Shown here: piece by piece, positions 2,246-9,621 of the stretch
Numbering within the stretch: position 1 is the stretch's first letter
Layout: every line of letters starts with the position of its first letter
Assembly: GCF_011745625.1 (NCBI RefSeq)
Contig: NW_027191464.1
Location: forward strand, 372,001-436,000
Direction of reading: 5' to 3'
Origin: Cladosporium halotolerans
Lineage: Eukaryota
DNA length: 64,000 nt
The notes under the pieces: generated by a model
The model's database searches: none
What the model saw: the letters and a program-made list of their open reading frames with translations, nothing else
Told to the model about the DNA's origin: nothing
Made by a program: the position numbers and the translations under genes

Positions 2246-4411
2246 AAATGCAGATCACCTGCGGAAGGTTTCAATCCACGTGACATGCATGCCGAGTGGC
2301 AGTCAGTCCGCCTCAATTTGTTGTCATGGAAAGTCGAAGTTTTCGCCTCTTACTCACTCGTCCACTCAAGACACAATATCGGTTGCCAGCATGCTGACTT
2401 GAGCTTGACCATATGGACTTAACGTGAGCCTTTGCGATCAATAGAGAACAAGCCCGCTAAGACGAGAGGCTCACGACTTTAAGCAAGCCGACACGCTTGT
2501 GTCCGCTCACTTCCTACTCTGTCAGTCTCGTAGAGGGCCTTCTGAGACCTTCCTCTCATCTCCGGCTCCGATGTGGCTTTTTCCGAAGCGCCGATGGACT
2601 CGAGTGTTGGAAAAAGTGGCGCCTACCAGCTGATCAAAAAGCTCCTGTGCTCTTCGAGCAGGACGTAGTTGCGGCTTCGATATAGGAGTTCGCATGTCGC
2701 GGCAAATTCTTCTGTCTAGGACGCGGCGCTGATCCCGTCTGTTAAGGTGGTATCGATGAGCTAGGCTGAATGTGCAACCGACACGGCCTTGGCTACCATC
2801 AATTCTCCGCCATCACCTGTCGCACAATCCTTTTGAGGGGCCAGGAGCACTCTTGTGTCAAACCACATTGCTGCAGGTGAGCGACGTCTTAAGATCGGCA
2901 TCATTCGATCCATGCATCTACTTTTTCTCATTGAGTTTGTGCTGCGTGATGGCGAGCCATGCAGTGGCCAGTGGGCTCAAAGACCTGTTGTCTGGTCTGA
3001 ACATGGCAGTCACAGAGAGTCGGCCTTCCGTCCAGGCCCCTTCATCGTGGAGCTCAAGACTTGGAGGGAGGTGGAGTCGACTCCGTAGCAGAGAGACATC
3101 GCTCCTCCAAGCAGCTTGTGAATGCTCACTGCTCCTGTGTCACCTTGGGTCGTAGGGCTCTCAATGCCTTCTCATCTCGCCTCCATTGTAGGTGCAATAT
3201 CTGATTGTGCAGGCTATTCCAGTGAGTATTCACGATGGACAGCACAAAGGAGAGTATGTCTGCTCGTGGTCCGTACCGAACCCTCACAGTGTTGTCGACA
3301 TCGATCGGACCACGAGCACATGTGGCAATGTGTGGTTGTGTTCTTCGATTCCACACGTCAGCTCACCGTCAGCCTGGAGAGGACCCTTTCTCCATACTAG
3401 GCGAAGTCTTGTGTCGACAAATTGCACGACATCTCTGACCGCTTGAATCTCGAGAGGCTTTGTGCAGCACCTAGCCTCTATTGCGTTCAACCGCGTTTGA
3501 TCGCATGGTTCCAAGCAAGTTTCAGCGAACGGTACTTCAACATACGGCAAAGACAACAAGATACAACCGACTCGTCCATCCGCGCAGACCTCCGATCAGC
3601 TTCTAAGTCACGAAGCTGGTAGGACAGCGAAGCAGCCCAAAGCAGCATCCGCAAAGCGCCACCGTCTCTGTTGGTTTCACAAGAGCTGAGAATGACTGGT
3701 TCCAGGCCTTTCCCCTGTGTCCACGCGCCTTGCTGCTCGATGCAACGTCAAACGTTATCGAGTTGCACGGCCATGGTCGAGCATTTTGCCAGTATTTCAT
3801 CTCCGATGCCAAGTAGCCCTACATGCAATCCCCCGAGGACTACGGCATTTTACTACGCTGTGTGGCTGGACGGCAGATTCGAGGTCCATGTCTTCAGCAG
3901 TTACAACGAGGAAAACATCCTGTTGCGAAATGCAAACATGTATGGGGTGTTGATCATAAATTCGACTGTCCACGATTGTAAACATTTCAAAATCATTCAC
4001 CCCCGCTGCATTTCGTCCGCCTTGCTAAACTTATCAGCAAGGGAATTGTTACACCTCGAAAACAACTCCTCCTTCAAGTTCCAGGCCTCGATCAGCGCAG
4101 TGCCTGGGCTCCTGCAGCTCATGACGATCTGTTTACTCACCTGATGGAGCGACTGTCAGTCTCGCCACAATTTGACACTTTCTTCTCACCCTACATTGCC
4201 AAGCAGGCTGTAACAGTCTCGTAGCGGTATCAGACGACTTATCACACTATCATTGCAGGCAGTGTGACCATTCGTAGCACAATGCTCTTTTCTGGAAGAT
4301 CATAAATACACCCCAAAACCACCCATTTTGAGTTCTTAAGTGTAGGATCTCCATCAGCCATCGATAAGAATCGTTTAACCTCACCTGTGGTCAAAACGCT
4401 CCCAAAATACA

Positions 4412-4961
4412 ATGCGCCCAAACGTTAGTCGAGATCCTGGTTGAATTGTAACTCAAGGACTAAAGGTTTCATCAGGTCATCCTCTACTCGTCTCTGGCGC
4501 TCCTCGCCTCCCTTGTGGCCGCCAACCCTCTCGCATACGCAGAGGCTGATGCCGAAGCCATCGCCGCCCCCTCTCCCGACGACGGCGACCCTGTCTCGTT
4601 GGTAGCCGGAGTCGGCTGCAGGGGTCCCATCGTCAACGTGTTCGAATATGACCGTGACCGCTGCGTCAACCAGAGGGGCGGGCCTTTCGCCTACAAGCTC
4701 AAATTTGCGCCAGCCCCAGGGACCATTGGCCAACCGTACGAGAGCTCCTGCCGGAACGAGAACACGCCGGCCGACCGTGTCAGGTCGACGGTGTTCATCA
4801 GCGACGGATCAGACCGTTCCATTTGCGTTCTGCGTCTTTACAATGATCGCGATTGCCGCGGCGGCTTTCAGGATTACTCCTTGTCTCGTGGAGGCACTAA
4901 TGGAGTTACCGATTGTATCAACGACGTTTGGAGGTCTGCCAGAGTCCGCTGTGGCTTCTGA
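4412..4961 (+). CDS. Small secreted cysteine-rich protein (~165 aa), effector-like. Exons 4412-4423 and 4476-4961
   Basis: ATG at 4412. The 52-nt intron 4424-4475 (GTTAGT..ACTAA..CAG) gives the in-frame signal peptide MRPNVILYSSLALLASLVAA/NP. The remainder has 7 Cys. Confidence 0.8.
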
Positions 4962-5515
4962 TCGATCTGTTGGGTCGTTGAGAAGGGGGTTTATGCGACG
5001 CTCGATTGCAACTGTCAGCTTGCTGCGATGGTGGTGATGATGATGACGATGATGATGACAATTTTTGCGCCGTTTGCCGATTTCGATTTTCGAATTGATC
5101 GATCCATGGGCGTGGACGATGTCCTGTCTCTACATAGGTAGATATCGCATACCAATCGCGCTTTCTCCAATCCAAGTCGTGAATTTTCATGAGCCTAAGA
5201 GTAGGCCCACCAAAGGCGGATGAAATTACAGCAACACTTGTGTACATTCTCTGACCCCAGAGACCACAGTGTAGCACTGATACTACACTCGGCTCTAGGC
5301 TCTACACCTGAAGGCCTAGGTCACTAGTCAGAGAGTCTGTATATATCCTGCAAATCTTCGGTCAAGTGGTGGTGGCATTTGCACTAGGTCGACATCATCT
5401 CAAGAAAGCTTTGCCCCGAAATTCAGCGCGTCAGAGGCACCTGCAGTCCATCGACGAGAAGAACATCAAATGGAATCGATAGAAGAAAAATTCAAAAATA
5501 AAAAATAAAATATCA

Positions 5516-5810
5516 GGACGATGCTGGTGAGCCAGCACCGGAAGACTTGAGATCTGTAAGAGATGTTATTTCTAAAATCTCCCTAATAGGGAATCAAATT
5601 GCAAAAGAATTATGGACGATGCTAGTAAGCTAGCACCGGAAGACTTGAGATCTGAAAGAGACGTCATTTCTGAAATCTCCCTAATAGGGAATCGAACCTT
5701 AAAAATGGAAAAAAGACGGTAGAACGGTACTGGTTAGCCAGTACCGGAAGACTTGAAATCTGTAAGAGATGTTCATTTCTGAAATCTCCCCAACAGGGAA
5801 TCGAACCCTG
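5516..5810 (-). repeat. Three tandem ~100-nt units, each made of the tRNA-Asp 3' end + trailer + hairpin + T-tract
   Basis: Core GGAAGACTTGARATCTGWAAGAGAYGT..ATTTCTRAAATCTCCCYAAYAGGGAATC starts at ~5540, ~5638 and ~5746 (periods 98 and 108 nt). Confidence 0.92.
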
Positions 5811-5877
5811 GTCTCCCGCGGCTTATCATCGGGTAATGAATGACAAGCGGAAATCATAGCCACTAGACCATTGAGGA
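5786..5877 (-). tRNA. tRNA-Asp(GUC) with a 20-nt intron (5821-5840)
   Basis: Minus strand: acceptor TCCTCAA/TTGGGGA, discriminator G, A-box TGGTCTAGTGG, anticodon arm TCCGC-TT-GTC-AC-GCGGG with intron after position 37, T-arm CAGGG-TTCGATT-CCCTG. Mature length 72 nt. Confidence 0.95.
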
Positions 5878-6122
5878 TTCGGATGCTTCAGCATCCAATG
5901 GATGAGACGAGGGTGAACTCCGCTGATTCTATTGTCTTGCACTGCGTTTGCACTACATCTTTAACGCACGCTTCCCATGTCCGCGCAACGGAGGCAAGCA
6001 TCAATCATCAGAGTGTAACCATGCGTGGCACCGGTTCCCATGCAGCTTCGATTTTAGCCCTTGTCAAGCACTTTGGATCTTTTCGAGCACGTCGAATGCA
6101 TTGCGGGGTTCTTGAGACTTCC

Positions 6123-8858
6123 TCACCGATTGAGACTCAGCAACCCCTCAACATATCTCCTAGCATCAACACCAAACCCACCCAGCCCTCCTACTGCACC
6201 ACTTGCCTCTCCATTACCACCTGCAGCATTGCTACTGCTGGCACCTCTCATGCCAAGTGAGCTCCACATCCCACTGCCCATTCTGGAGCCAACGCTTGCC
6301 TTCGTTTGCGTCGGCCCTGAAGCGGAATCGTCTGCCTTCCGAACAAGGATTGCGACCCGGTGCGTTTGGTCCACCCTCGGCGCGGGTATGATGGAATCCA
6401 CGAGTCCAAGCGTGCTCCTCGGCCCGCCCTGCGAGTCTACCTGATTGCTGCCCGCGTTCTCTTCAGACTGCTGCACGGTTGACCCGTCGTCTGGCTTTGC
6501 GTCATCCTGGGCGACGGAAGGTGGCAACCGTAGCCAAACGACCCACCAGCTGCGAGACGTCTTGCTTGTACGCTCGAGAGCTGTGTCGCCCTTTGGGCCG
6601 GATGTTGCGGCTAAGGAAGCGAGGATGCTCGCGTGCACGTTGAGGGCTTCCAGGCGTGTCCATGGGTCATATGCGCCAGGGTTGGGGATGTTGGGAAGAC
6701 TTGAGTGGGTTGAAAGCCGTACAGGGTCATGAATGATGGAGAAGATTGGTGAGTCGCTGTGCGGGTGATGCGTAAGGAGACGCTGTGCGACGGTCTCCGG
6801 GCTCGTAGAGGCCAGGAGGCGCTTATGAATTGGTTTTAAGGTGTTATGCAGGGATTTGTAAAGGCCAGAATAGCTGAGAGACGGGGTCCGCTGTTCGAAG
6901 AGGAAGGCAAACATGAATGGCCTGCGGACGTAGATGAGCACGCGCAAACGGCGGAAGTTCTTGGTGACAGGGTTTTCTGGCATAAGATGGCCTGTGTCTC
7001 CATCTCCGTCCTCGCGGGCGAGATCTTCATCAACCTTCTCTGCGTAAGTCTGCTTCTTGGGCGCGATCTCGATTTGCACTGTGCGGACAAGTGTCCGCCT
7101 GCCACCGAATGTTTGTTGTGAACTGCCCTCGGTAATGCTGGCATCATCGTCTTCCTCATTTTCATCGGCAGACAGGTCACCTGTGAGACCGACAACAAAG
7201 CCGCCTTGGTTCTCACCACGGACTTGCAGCGCGAGCTTATTGCGCATCTCTTCACCTTCGGGCACGGGATCAATGTGAGACAAGGCAGCTTTGTCGTCTG
7301 TGGTACCACCGCTGGAAGTCGGAGCTTTGGATTTGCGTATGCTGTCCTCCGATGGCTTGGATGCCTTCGAATTGTCGGCTGATGGTTTTGGTGTGTCCGA
7401 CTGCTTCTTCGTGTATGATTTGGCAAGCGAACTAAGACCAAATGTCATGTACTTCATGTACTGATCTGGTATGCCCATGGTCGTTCCATCCTCGCTCTCC
7501 TCAGGTGCGTCACGTGTTGACTTCTGATCTGCATTTTTGGTCGCTTTGTTCAGTGCTTGTTCAGCAGCTGACACTATGGGAGGCGGGATATTGGGGTGAC
7601 TGGCCGATTGTGGCGTAGATGTACCAGTAGCGTGGTCATGCGAAGCAACCCGGTCGTACATTTGAGGCCTCGGATCCTTGGGAAGGAGGGCAGGGTCGAT
7701 GGTAGGCGACTCTGACCTTGCTGCCTCTTGTGCTTGGATCCTCTGCCGCAAATCCCGCGCATCAACCTGTCTCGAAGTTTTCGAGGAAGTCGACGAAGCG
7801 TTCTCTTGCGGAGGAGGGTTGCGTCTTCGCCGTTTTCGTCGCTCACGGTGAGGATTGTCCCGGACGCCATAAGCTTGTTCTCCATACGTGTATATTTGCC
7901 GCATCCAGAGAGAAATGCTTCGTAGGGAGTTCCGGTTGAGTTCGTCGAGTCCACTAAAGACAATGCCATCCGACGTAGAAGGGAGATTGCCGCTCCCTAG
8001 CCACGGCATTTCGTCCATTTCGGAGACTGAATTCTCGTCTCTTTCCGTTGTAGGCTCTCCAAACCTCGCTACAACCATATCCACCAAGCCTTCTGTCCTC
8101 CTCGTCATGCCCTCCAGCACCTCCCTCTCTCCACTTCCCCATTCCTCCTCGCCGACTCCGACTCCGAGCTCGCCGCCAGCAGCGAGCTTTACACCGCCAA
8201 GAACATCGACAGCCGGGTTTCCATGAAGCAAGACATCCCAGCTCCGCGCAAATCGCGTCCAGTATCTTTCCAGCGTGCTGCAAAACTTCTCCCGTGATAG
8301 CCTGACAAAAAGCTCATCCAGCGTCGGCCCATGATGCAGCAAAAACACCCAATGCGCCTGCAGCAACTGCTGTATCAGCAGTGCCGGCGAGCTAACCTCC
8401 CGCGACGAGTACTCCAGCGCAGGTTTCGCATTCGCCTCGCTCTTGCCCGCTGCTCCGGTCGCCGGCGCCGGTAGCCGCGTGAGATCAATCGAGGCCAGAA
8501 TCCACCAGCCCCTCTCCAGCTCGCGCAGCACGACGCGCGACTTCTCCGTCTCGACGGAGTCGACGGGCTGCTCGCCCTCAGAGAACGTCTTCGCGAAGCC
8601 GACCATGCCCTGCGCAAGCCCGATCTGCCTCAGCCGCTCGTTCTCGTCCTCGCGCTCTGCGGCCTTCCTCTTAGCTTCTGAGCCCGCATCTCCGCTCTTT
8701 TCTGCGCGTCGCGCTTCGGTGGTTTTGCGCGAGTACCAGAAGACCAGCTGGTCGGCGAATGTCTCGTCGGTTGGGCCGAGGGTGGGATTGTAGATGGCGA
8801 GGAAGGACAGCTGTGCTGGGGTCACGGAGGAGGCGTGGTATTTGTGGGTCGTGGTCAT
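6123..8858 (-). CDS. CCZ1: Vacuolar fusion protein Ccz1 homolog (longin-domain Mon1-Ccz1 GEF subunit), intronless, ~911 aa
   Basis: N-terminal PAQLSFLAIYNPTLG...ENERLRQIGLAQGMV.F...ETEKSRVV..ELE.GWWILASIDLT is typical of Pezizomycotina Ccz1, as is the C-terminal RRYVEGLLSLNR. ATG chosen at 8858. Confidence 0.85.
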   Translation of the reverse strand: MTTTHKYHASSVTPAQLSFLAIYNPTLGPTDETFADQLVFWYSRKTTEARRAEKSGDAGSEAKRKAAEREDENERLRQIGLAQGMVGFAKTFSEGEQPVDSVETEKSRVVLRELERGWWILASIDLTRLPAPATGAAGKSEANAKPALEYSSREVSSPALLIQQLLQAHWVFLLHHGPTLDELFVRLSREKFCSTLERYWTRFARSWDVLLHGNPAVDVLGGVKLAAGGELGVGVGEEEWGSGEREVLEGMTRRTEGLVDMVVARFGEPTTERDENSVSEMDEMPWLGSGNLPSTSDGIVFSGLDELNRNSLRSISLWMRQIYTYGEQAYGVRDNPHRERRKRRRRNPPPQENASSTSSKTSRQVDARDLRQRIQAQEAARSESPTIDPALLPKDPRPQMYDRVASHDHATGTSTPQSASHPNIPPPIVSAAEQALNKATKNADQKSTRDAPEESEDGTTMGIPDQYMKYMTFGLSSLAKSYTKKQSDTPKPSADNSKASKPSEDSIRKSKAPTSSGGTTDDKAALSHIDPVPEGEEMRNKLALQVRGENQGGFVVGLTGDLSADENEEDDDASITEGSSQQTFGGRRTLVRTVQIEIAPKKQTYAEKVDEDLAREDGDGDTGHLMPENPVTKNFRRLRVLIYVRRPFMFAFLFEQRTPSLSYSGLYKSLHNTLKPIHKRLLASTSPETVAQRLLTHHPHSDSPIFSIIHDPVRLSTHSSLPNIPNPGAYDPWTRLEALNVHASILASLAATSGPKGDTALERTSKTSRSWWVVWLRLPPSVAQDDAKPDDGSTVQQSEENAGSNQVDSQGGPRSTLGLVDSIIPAPRVDQTHRVAILVRKADDSASGPTQTKASVGSRMGSGMWSSLGMRGASSSNAAGGNGEASGAVGGLGGFGVDARRYVEGLLSLNR

Positions 8859-9621
8859 GCTAGAGAGCGTGGGAGGGGTTGATGCACGTGTAGAACGAGA
8901 GGGCAGCTGACCATTGGTGGTCGAGTGTTTTCGTTGGAAGGTCGAGGTATGACGTTGCACGGGCTGTCAAGCTTGACTTCCATGGCTTTCATGGAGAGCT
9001 GTAGAGGTACCAACCTCATGCACGTCTTGACAAGCTATCGGTTAACAATTGATAGGTGAATAGATAGTGGGCCGAAAGTTTCTGGCAAGACAGAATCTGA
9101 GTTGGACAAGTAACTTTTCTTTATCGCGTTGATTGTTTGGGACCGTACTCGATTCATGCAGCTGTTAATTGAATGAAGCAAGCAGATGAGATGAATCCCC
9201 AAACGAGCGAAAATAACAGTGTGTGTTACCTCAACCGACCCAAAAAGCATTCCGGAAATTACTAAAACTCTCACGGAAGCTATAGGCACGTTTGTGTTCA
9301 TTGTTCGATAGGCACTCGGGCATGTTAACGCCTCCATATAAATCGAGGTCTACCCCAACCCTAACCCTAAAGCAGAGCGCAAAACCTCACGAACACGACC
9401 AACCGTAGGTGCTGTGGGAGCACAATGCTGCAAATGGGTTGTGCACTGAAAAACGTCGCGCAGCTGAACAGTCTCTTGGAATGATAGGCGTGACAAAGCC
9501 AGCATCGAGAGGCTCATATATATCATTTCATATAGCCTTTACTCATCAAATTCATTTCTAACAGGGAGCAGCGTCTGCCCATGATATCGTCCTCCATATC
9601 CAGCTACAGTCTCCCGAAAAA

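What the first reader, a model, noticed from the sequence alone, without database searches (positions are those of the whole stretch)
5516..5877. tRNA-Asp 3' end and trailer triplicated in tandem, each unit ending in a co-varying hairpin and T-tract: candidate tRNA-linked small-RNA array
Seen: on the minus strand the intact tRNA-Asp is followed by a ~70-nt trailer, a 9-bp hairpin (5725-5746) and TTTTTTCCATTTTT. Two further units carry only the T-arm/acceptor remnant plus the same trailer; their hairpins are at 5617-5638 and 5519-5540, and each is followed by T-runs. The middle unit keeps a perfect B-box GGTTCGATTCC (5688-5698). The hairpins differ but all pair: CGGUACUGG-CUAA-CCAGUACCG, CGGUGCUAG-CUUA-CUAGCAUCG, CGGUGCUGG-CUCA-CCAGCAUCG. 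That is two double-sided substitutions, a variable tetraloop, and one change that is a G-U pair only on the tRNA-sense strand. Known: tRNA 3' trailers are normally short and unconserved, although tRNA precursors can release functional RNAs via RNase Z (plant tRNA-snoRNA units, a Neurospora milRNA). Inference: the trailer is a functional Pol III RNA amplified into an array. Caveat: the co-varying changes are all CpA/TpG<->TpA, which RIP could produce symmetrically in a palindrome.
Basis: partly seen in the sequence, partly recalled or inferred. Interest (0 to 1): 0.8.

Follow-up and report, generated by a model that had tools for sequence, protein, structure and literature searches.

The report
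tRNA-Asp gene with triplicated structured trailer
A fungal tRNA-Asp gene is followed by a long, hairpin-bearing tail that also occurs at other places in related genomes, and here the tail has been copied twice more in tandem, most likely as decaying by-products and not as a working array of small-RNA genes.

Summary
An intron-bearing tRNA-Asp(GTC) gene lies at 5786-5877 (minus). The first T-run of 4 or more is 71 nt past its 3' end. Its T-arm, acceptor 3' strand and trailer recur twice with a 98-nt period, and each unit has a 9-bp hairpin.

New here: contigs of other public runs carry the same trailer joined to different flanks. In 5 of 5 listed cases the likeness stops within 17 nt of a T5+ run, against a 1.3% background. 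The trailer therefore looks like the transcribed tail of a small tRNA-Asp gene family. The closest precedent is Yarrowia tRNA-Trp-RUF70.

The local "array" looks like decay:
- Units 2 and 3 lack the tRNA 5' half and have no A box above chance, and they lie behind T6 and T5 terminators.
- Unit 3 has lost its B box, gained an internal T4 and lost a pair in hairpin 1.
- C>T/G>A changes hit 8 of 10 CpA/TpG columns against 10 of 37 others (p=0.004), which is RIP-like.
- Hairpin covariation is not significant (47 of 500 shuffles).

No transcription evidence could be obtained. I read it as a new variant of a known kind, of moderate interest.

The parts
5786..5877 (-). tRNA-Asp(GTC) gene: exon 1 5841-5877, 20-nt intron 5821-5840, exon 2 5786-5820. 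A box 5860-5870 (1 mismatch to the recalled consensus), B box 5797-5807 (0 mismatches).
5715..5785 (-). Unit 1 trailer: 71 nt with no T4+ run. Predicted hairpin 1 at 5749-5780 and the 9-bp hairpin 2 at 5725-5746 (all Watson-Crick).
5701..5714 (-). First usable Pol III terminator: T6 (5709-5714), then T5 (5701-5705).
5611..5700 (-). Unit 2: T-arm remnant with a perfect B box (5688-5698), acceptor 3'-strand remnant (5677-5689), trailer with hairpin 1 (5641-5671) and hairpin 2 (5617-5638; one G-U pair, one private A-U pair). No tRNA 5' half.
5603..5606 (-). Only T-run after unit 2: T4, a weak terminator at best.
5513..5602 (-). Unit 3: decayed B box (5590-5600, 3 mismatches), acceptor remnant (5579-5591), internal T4 (5574-5577), hairpin 1 region (5543-5573, one G-C pair lost), hairpin 2 (5519-5540). 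Hairpin 2 here has the letters that the other genomic copies carry.
5486..5510 (-). T-rich block after unit 3: T4, T6, T5, T5.
5881..5896 (-). Perfect 6-bp hairpin with a 4-nt loop in the 5' leader, 3 nt upstream of the tRNA. It overlaps a CCATTGG motif at 5895-5901.
   Evidence: motif recurrence loose ends

Best explanation
This is one member of a small family of tRNA-Asp(GUC) genes in an ascomycete. Their Pol III transcription unit runs about 71 nt past the tRNA before the first usable T-run.

Inferred mechanism:
- TFIIIC binds the A and B boxes of the tRNA.
- Pol III starts a few nt upstream, reads the tRNA with its intron and then the trailer, and stops at T6 (5709-5714).
- RNase Z cuts after the discriminator (5786) and frees a 72-78-nt RNA with a 5' phosphate.
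- This RNA has two hairpins and a 3' oligo-U next to the 9-bp stem, a layout that should bind La and resist 3' exonucleases.

This is the architecture of the Yarrowia tRNA-Trp-RUF70 genes.

At this locus alone, the segment from the T-arm to the terminator was duplicated twice in tandem, by unequal crossover or slippage. The second duplication included the first junction. The two extra units cannot make a tRNA and have no promoter of their own. They are reached only by terminator read-through, and they are decaying under CpA>TpA-biased (RIP-like) transitions.

Shown: the anatomy, the position of the terminators, trailer copies with other flanks elsewhere, and the mutation bias. Inferred: transcription, RNase Z release, stability of the trailer RNA, and inactivity of units 2 and 3. 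I put about 0.35 on the trailer RNA being a stable, selected product.
For: (1) An intact tRNA-Asp with a canonical intron.

(2) No T4+ run between 5785 and 5715; T6+T5 follow.

(3), contigs of 4 runs laid at 80% or more:
- X3 holds the array with 0 differences (record 14).
- X3 also holds other contigs at similar depth (18-27) that match only trailer parts and then run into unlike DNA: records 15 and 16, and the loose end at 5514.
- X17 record 9 carries tRNA plus trailer (5730-5885, 6 differences) with a different upstream flank.
- All 5 listed loose ends on the downstream side (X3 5514 and 5584, X8 5512, X14 5515 and 5519) show a run of 5 or more A on the + strand (T on the tRNA strand) ending 2-17 nt from the break.
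- Only 1.3% of window positions have a T5+ run starting within 25 nt.

(4) The trailer folds well below shuffles. Hairpin 2 has 27 of 27 cells paired.

(5) Decay of the extra units:
- No A box above chance.
- B box lost in unit 3.
- Internal T4 in unit 3.
- Hairpin 1 loses a G-C pair in unit 3.
- CpA/TpG columns hit 8 of 10 against 10 of 37 other C/G columns, Fisher p=0.004.
- Transitions to transversions 14:3, 14:2 and 10:3.

(6) Precedent: PMC2566860 (abstract, section 14 and passages read). All 13 tRNA-Trp genes have their terminator about 70 nt downstream, the trailer is structured, and a ~70-nt RNA is seen on Northern blots.
Against: - No transcript evidence. All four runs laid are contigs, which cannot show RNA ends, and their RNA labels are guesses.
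- The window's own genome is not held. 'Other loci' therefore rests on contigs of coded runs. X8 and X14 look like mixtures, so some 'other copies' may be the same locus in other organisms.
- One copy in X8 (loose end before 5753) has three changed letters in one arm of hairpin 2 with no matching change, so 3 of 9 pairs are lost. The stem is therefore not kept everywhere.
- Pol III may stop at non-canonical signals before the T6, as shown for human tDNAs (PMC3141230, abstract).
- All three hairpins here stay fully paired despite 14-19% divergence between units. Under independent hits at the observed rate, no half-hit pair among 6 has P of about 0.02 (my arithmetic). This leans somewhat towards selection or templated correction in the extra units too.
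- RIP indices of the array are not extreme: TpA/ApT is 0.81 against a window median of 0.58 and a 95th percentile of 1.07.
Confidence: 0.55

Rival explanations
1. One reading: each of the three units yields a functional small Pol III RNA. Unit 1 would work by RNase Z release. Units 2 and 3 would work from their own B-box-driven transcription or by processing of a read-through precursor. On this view the array is an amplification under selection.
For: All three 9-bp stems are intact, with 2 double-sided changes and one G-U that pairs only on the tRNA-sense strand. Unit 2 keeps an 11 of 11 B box. Each unit keeps a T-run.
Against: - There is no A box above chance level: matches with 3 or fewer mismatches occur once per 61 nt.
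- The units lack the 5' strands of the acceptor stem, so they are not RNase Z substrates (direct reading; substrate requirement from own knowledge).
- They sit behind T6+T5.
- In unit 3 the B box is lost, an internal T4 has arisen, and hairpin 1 is broken.
- Covariation is reached by 47 of 500 shuffles.
- All stem changes are of the over-hit CpA/TpG class.
Confidence: 0.12
2. Everything past the tRNA is neutral. The trailer is only a long spacer that Pol III happens to read. It is shared between loci because the tRNA-Asp genes spread recently by DNA duplication or are homogenised by gene conversion. The hairpin is an accidental palindrome, kept perfect by intrastrand templated repair.
For: - Only a handful of copies are seen.
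- One copy has a broken stem (X8 loose end before 5753).
- Structure statistics on three units are not significant.
- Both strands fold about equally well.
Against: - Likeness ends next to a T5+ run in 5 of 5 listed downstream breaks, against a 1.3% background. Random duplication breakpoints would not do this.
- The unit-1 trailer differs from the common form at 7 places. By my reading, 5 of these keep or add pairs.
Confidence: 0.2
3. The unit is a tRNA-Asp-derived SINE-like retroposon, and the extra units are truncated insertions.
For: There are multiple copies with different flanks, and the likeness is roughly limited to the presumed Pol III transcript. tRNA-related SINEs exist in filamentous fungi (PMC5063351, listing and start of abstract only).
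Against: - Copies end in T-runs on the sense strand, not in A-rich or simple-repeat tails.
- The head is an intact tRNA gene with its intron.
- Units 2 and 3 are in phase, and the unit1/unit2 junction is homologous to the unit2/unit3 junction. That is the signature of tandem duplication, not of separate insertions.
- Target-site duplications could not be examined.
Confidence: 0.05
4. Unit 2 matters as DNA, not RNA. Its orphan perfect B box would be an extra TFIIIC site, like yeast ETC sites or the external B box downstream of Dictyostelium tRNA genes (both recalled, not read here). Such a site would strengthen TFIIIC loading or act as a boundary between the flanking genes.
For: An 11 of 11 B box at 5688-5698 lies 109 nt downstream of the gene's own B box, with no A box.
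Against: The B box is explained by descent from the duplicated T-arm. The homologous box in unit 3 has already decayed (3 mismatches), which argues against selection on it. No occupancy data exist.
Confidence: 0.08

Closest known systems
tRNA-Trp(CCA)-RUF70 dicistronic Pol III genes of Yarrowia lipolytica (Acker et al. 2008, PMC2566860; abstract, section 14, passages and supplement list read)
   Same: A fungal tRNA gene with no terminator near its 3' end and a T-track about 70 nt downstream. The trailer has no internal promoter, is shared by several gene copies and is predicted to be structured, with compensatory changes. An alternative pairing uses the tRNA acceptor 3' strand: the legend of their Fig. 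2B, and here.
   Different: A different tRNA (Asp against Trp) and a different lineage. No sequence comparison was possible, because the RUF70 sequences are in a figure and the supplement gives coordinates only. There, all 13 copies were shown and a ~70-nt RNA was seen on a Northern blot. Here only a few copies are glimpsed in contigs and no RNA is shown. RUF70 has no reported tandem partial units.
tRNA-precursor-derived milR-4 of Neurospora crassa and MHV68 tRNA-miRNA units (Yang et al. 2013, PMC3547838; passages read)
   Same: Pol III transcript with a tRNA at the 5' end, a downstream hairpin and a T cluster at the end. RNase Z makes the 5' end of the downstream RNA.
   Different: milR-4 comes from a long stem that Dicer partly processes into a ~20-nt RNA. 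Here the stem is 9 bp with a 4-nt loop, too short for a Dicer substrate (own knowledge).
Long 3' trailers from distanced or non-canonical Pol III terminators of human tRNA genes (Orioli et al. 2011, PMC3141230; abstract read)
   Same: tRNA genes without a nearby T-run give pre-tRNAs with unusually long trailers that could become ncRNAs.
   Different: The human trailers are locus-specific, not a shared structured sequence. That work also warns that termination can occur at degenerate signals upstream of the first canonical T-run.
RIP-mutated short duplications in filamentous ascomycetes (RIPCAL paper, PMC2621366; start of abstract in the search listing only)
   Same: C:G>T:A transitions with a CpA preference dominate the differences between the units.
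   Different: The units are only 98 nt (about 300 nt in all), near or below the length I recall as needed for RIP. Composition indices are not extreme. Whether this organism performs RIP is unknown.

Membership tests
Dicistronic tRNA-ncRNA Pol III gene (RUF70 type) | No T-track within 50 nt of the tRNA 3' end; first terminator about 70 nt downstream | tested here: met
   First T4+ run is the T6 at 5714-5709, 71 nt after 5786.
Dicistronic tRNA-ncRNA Pol III gene (RUF70 type) | The same trailer follows all or most genes of that tRNA family | tested here: inconclusive
   Several contigs with other flanks carry the trailer. X17 record 9 and one X8 contig carry tRNA plus trailer. No whole genome is held, so the share of tRNA-Asp genes with the trailer is unknown.
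Dicistronic tRNA-ncRNA Pol III gene (RUF70 type) | Conserved secondary structure supported by compensatory changes | tested here: inconclusive
   Hairpin 2 is 100% paired with 2 double-sided changes, but 47 of 500 shuffles reach that. One X8 copy has a broken arm.
Dicistronic tRNA-ncRNA Pol III gene (RUF70 type) | Trailer lacks its own internal promoter | tested here: met
   No B box within the trailer proper. A-box-like matches only at the chance rate.
Dicistronic tRNA-ncRNA Pol III gene (RUF70 type) | Stable processed RNA of about 70 nt in vivo | not testable with these tools
   Only contigs could be laid. They show no RNA ends.
Dicistronic tRNA-ncRNA Pol III gene (RUF70 type) | Sequence homology to RUF70 itself | not tested
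   RUF70 sequences are not in the held text or supplement. No Rfam family matched the trailer.
tRNA-derived SINE | A-rich, simple-repeat or LINE-derived 3' tail | tested here: not met
   Copies end in T-runs on the sense strand.
tRNA-derived SINE | Dispersed copies flanked by target-site duplications | not testable with these tools
   Flanks of the other copies are seen only as 30-letter loose ends.
tRNA-linked pre-miRNA/milRNA unit | Hairpin stem long enough (about 20 bp) to give a ~20-nt duplex | tested here: not met
   Stem of 9 bp with a 4-nt loop.
tRNA-snoRNA dicistronic gene (plants) | C/D or H/ACA box snoRNA downstream of the tRNA | tested here: not met
   No snoRNA family matched the trailer even at E up to 10. 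The one snoRNA row, ceN70, lies outside it at 5400-5431 with 13.5 bits against a gathering score of 65.
Extra-TFIIIC (B-box-only) site | Consensus B box without an A box | tested here: met
   Unit 2 has 11 of 11 matches at 5688-5698 and no A box above chance. The consensus is recalled.
Extra-TFIIIC (B-box-only) site | TFIIIC occupancy without Pol III | not testable with these tools
   Needs ChIP.
RIP-affected repeat | C:G>T:A transitions enriched at CpA/TpG | tested here: met
   8 of 10 CpA/TpG columns against 10 of 37 others, p=0.004. The ancestor was assumed to be the C/G state.
RIP-affected repeat | Raised TpA/ApT and lowered (CpA+TpG)/(ApC+GpT) indices | tested here: inconclusive
   0.81 and 1.12, against window medians of 0.575 and 1.26. 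Both lie inside the window's 5th-95th percentile range.

The most novel reading that the evidence does not exclude
The tRNA-Asp genes of this ascomycete lineage all carry a conserved ~72-nt two-hairpin trailer. RNase Z would release it as a stable, La-bound Pol III RNA. That would be a second, independent RUF70-like tRNA-linked ncRNA family, this time in a filamentous-type ascomycete. Its 5' part can alternatively pair with the tRNA acceptor 3' strand, which could couple tRNA-Asp maturation to the trailer. The tandem extra units would then be read-through-fed extra doses or TFIIIC landing sites.
Probability: 0.3. Interest if true: 0.65.

Novelty: new variant of a known kind. Interest (0 to 1): 0.45.

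Why it matters
Dicistronic Pol III genes in which a tRNA drives a promoter-less downstream RNA are rare. The fungal example of unknown function, RUF70, appears in only 2 papers of the searched library. A second family, unrelated in tRNA identity, would show that tRNA trailers have become stable structured RNAs more than once in fungi. It would also give a second system in which to ask what such RNAs do. The local triplication is a natural experiment. It has three diverged copies of one hairpin, one behind a promoter and two not, so selection on RNA can be told apart from RIP-type mutation and palindrome repair. If the trailer proves to be a mere spacer, the locus is an ordinary decaying tandem duplication.

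Tried and rejected
- **Own genome:** not held, so no genome-wide count of trailers was possible.
- **Earlier notes of this scan:** nothing by sequence or place. Word searches gave nothing, or an unrelated bacterial tRNA-Val array.
- **Metagenome scan** with a 20-letter trailer pattern: 2 loci, L001 and L002. Both are GC-rich uninterrupted DNA with no tRNA or other Rfam match. I take them for chance hits.
- **Genome contigs and viral contigs** with two trailer patterns: 0 hits each. These collections are prokaryotic or viral, so this says nothing about fungi.
- **Rfam** at E up to 10 over 5400-6000: only the tRNA and weak chance rows.
- **A-box search:** matches in each hairpin 2 have 2-3 mismatches, but such matches occur once per 61 nt (3 or fewer mismatches) or once per 401 nt (2 or fewer) in the window. 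Rejected as promoters.
- **RNA evidence:** X14 and X17 are only guessed to be RNA. X17 has no cover over 4800-5670 and 5939-6072, and its contig over the upstream gene stops near 6080. Contigs cannot show transcription of the trailer, so I draw nothing from this. Depths are sums over contigs and organisms and are not used as copy numbers. The tool may drop tRNA-like contigs as human-like, so dips over the tRNA mean nothing.
- **Terminal inverted repeats** around the unit: none listed.
- **Literature:** no paper on conserved tRNA-Asp trailers in filamentous fungi was found.
- **Neighbouring ORFs** at 3623-5301 have no Pfam match.

Full report
**1. What is there**

On the minus strand, 5786-5877 is a tRNA gene (Rfam tRNA, 44.7 bits). 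Exon 1 is 5841-5877, the intron 5821-5840 and exon 2 5786-5820. The tool's bacterial ARAGORN mode missed it. The upstream neighbour is a 911-aa CCZ1-like protein whose nearest Atlas clusters are from Ascomycota, so this is a fungal nuclear locus.

Downstream of the tRNA, its T-arm, acceptor 3' strand and trailer recur twice:
- TRF gives a period of 98 with 91% matches.
- The repeat finder gives three copies in register.
- The alignment is A1, and pairwise identity is 81-86% over 90 shared columns.
- No further copy lies in the 64 kb.

A contig of an independent DNA run (X3, record 14) matches 5530-5765 without a difference, so the array is not an assembly artefact.

**2. Terminator logic**

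On the tRNA-sense strand, the first run of four or more T after the tRNA 3' end is T6 at 5714-5709, followed by T5 at 5705-5701. The 71 nt between hold only T3 runs. By what is known of Pol III, which terminates in T-runs (own knowledge; PMC3141230 abstract), the primary transcript should carry the whole trailer.

The trailer alone folds into two hairpins. The z-scores are -4.90 for unit 1, -3.85 for unit 2 and -2.98 for unit 3. The opposite strand folds about as well, so folding does not tell the strands apart.

In the whole precursor, the tRNA acceptor 3' strand plus the first trailer letters can instead pair with the 5' strand of hairpin 1.

**3. The trailer is not private to this locus**

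This is the main new result. I laid the contigs of four public runs on 4800-6800 at 80% likeness or more. Besides contigs that match the locus, they include contigs that match only the trailer, or the tRNA plus trailer, and then run on into unlike DNA.
- **X3.** Records 15 (1019 nt) and 16 (3599 nt), and the loose end at 5514, have depths of 18-27, like the flanking single-copy contigs.
- **X17.** Record 9 (1584 nt) covers 5730-5885 with 6 differences and then has a different upstream flank. X14 shows the same flank.
- **Upstream of the tRNA.** Eight listed loose ends break at 5877, 5882, 5885, 5901 and 5910 and give at least five different contexts.
- **Downstream.** All 5 listed loose ends (X3 5514 and 5584; X8 5512; X14 5515 and 5519) show a run of five or more A on the + strand, which is T on the tRNA strand. 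These runs end 2-17 nt from where the likeness stops. In the window, only 1.3% of positions have a T5+ run starting within 25 nt.

So where the trailer recurs, likeness ends at a Pol III terminator. That fits a conserved transcription unit better than random duplication breakpoints.

The other copies carry the unit-3 letters in hairpin 2 (5624 G, 5627 G and 5631 C in 2 contigs each of X3, X8 and X14). They lack the extra A of unit 1 (5772 left out in 2 X8 contigs).

Caveats:
- Seven further loose ends and 80 further pieces were not shown.
- X8 and X14 look like mixtures of organisms.
- The window's own genome is not held.

**4. Is the local array a set of working genes?**

The evidence says no.
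- Units 2 and 3 start inside the T-arm and lack the whole 5' half of the tRNA.
- A-box-like matches occur in each hairpin 2 (2-3 mismatches), but such matches occur once per 61 nt in the window.
- The units lie behind T6+T5.
- Unit 2 keeps a perfect B box. Unit 3 has 3 mismatches, an internal T4 made by a C>T and an A-C mismatch in hairpin 1 from a G>A.
- The unit1/unit2 junction is homologous to the unit2/unit3 junction. The array therefore grew by tandem duplication of a unit that already held a junction.

**5. The covariation argument**

Hairpin 2 has 9 pairs. Six never vary, one is G-U in units 2 and 3 and G-C in unit 1, and two changed on both sides. Formally, 47 of 500 shuffles reach the observed values.

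All four double-sided letters are TpG>TpA or CpA>TpA. Across the units, C>T/G>A changes hit 8 of 10 CpA/TpG columns against 10 of 37 other C/G columns (Fisher p=0.004). Transitions outnumber transversions 14:3, 14:2 and 10:3. This is the RIP signature, C:G>T:A with a CpA preference (PMC2621366, start of abstract only).

My arithmetic on chance:
- Given two hits among the four RIP-prone stem sites in each of units 1 and 2, the chance that both form complete pairs is 1 in 9.
- With independent hits at the observed 11 of 30 rate, no half-hit pair among six has P of about 0.02.

That is a hint at most. Palindrome-templated repair (own knowledge) would give the same picture. One X8 copy has three unmatched changes in one arm.

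On the other side, unit 1, the transcribed one, differs from the common form at seven trailer places. By my reading, five of these keep or add pairs: the A-U swap, G-U to G-C, and an inserted A opposite a C>U.

**6. Comparison with what is known**

The closest match is Yarrowia lipolytica (PMC2566860). All 13 tRNA-Trp(CCA) genes lack a terminator within 50 nt and carry a ~70-nt structured, promoter-less trailer, RUF70. It is co-transcribed by Pol III and seen as a ~70-nt RNA on Northern blots, and its function is unknown. The legend of their Figure 2B also describes an alternative structure at the expense of the acceptor stem.

RUF70 sequences are not in the held text or supplement, so homology could not be tested. 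'RUF70' occurs in only 2 papers of the library.

Other comparisons:
- Neurospora milR-4 is cut from a tRNA-Ala precursor by RNase Z (PMC3547838), but it needs a long Dicer-type stem. The 9-bp stem here does not qualify.
- No snoRNA or other Rfam family fits the trailer.
- A SINE reading fails on the T-rich sense-strand ends.

**7. Verdict**

The locus is best read in two parts:
- (a) A tRNA-Asp gene of a small family with a RUF70-like, co-transcribed structured trailer. The anatomy is shown; expression and function are inferred.
- (b) Two tandem partial copies that are decaying under RIP-like mutation.

The 'amplified array' and the covariation evidence do not hold up. Searches that found nothing are listed under Tried and rejected.

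Noticed in passing
window 5881-5901 (minus): A perfect 6-bp hairpin with a 4-nt loop lies 3 nt upstream of the tRNA 5' end and overlaps a CCATTGG motif. Several loose ends of other tRNA-Asp contigs show a CCAATGG-like motif (+ strand) 10-25 nt upstream of the tRNA. This may be a family-specific upstream element.
   Followed up: partly
window 5183-5512: One X14 contig joins 5182 directly to 5513, skipping 330 nt. The ends of the skipped part are not intron-like. The right-hand break is exactly the end of unit 3, so a relative has an indel that abuts the trailer end (table 5).
   Followed up: no
window 5709-5887 (minus): In the fold of the whole precursor, the tRNA acceptor 3' strand plus the first trailer letters pair with the 5' strand of trailer hairpin 1. 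This recalls the alternative RUF70 structure described in PMC2566860.
   Followed up: partly
window 6619-6662: A 44-nt piece inside the CCZ1-like gene is matched by an X3 contig at depth 363 against about 20 for its surroundings. It is a short high-copy or low-complexity element.
   Followed up: no
window 6123-8966 (minus): An uninterrupted 947-codon frame encodes a CCZ1/INTU/HPS4 first-longin-domain protein (Pfam PF19031, E 7.6e-11). The Atlas holds it from residue 37 on. A contig of run X17 over this gene stops near 6080.
   Followed up: partly
window 5027-5059: GAT/GATGAT trinucleotide repeat (period 3, 10.7 copies) in the region downstream of the array. The ORFs at 3623-5301 have no Pfam match.
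   Followed up: no
window 5838: Intron position 5838 reads T instead of G in most tRNA-Asp contig depth of X8 (316.8 of 345) and in X17. The intron is thus shared, with one variant, among the other tRNA-Asp copies.
   Followed up: no
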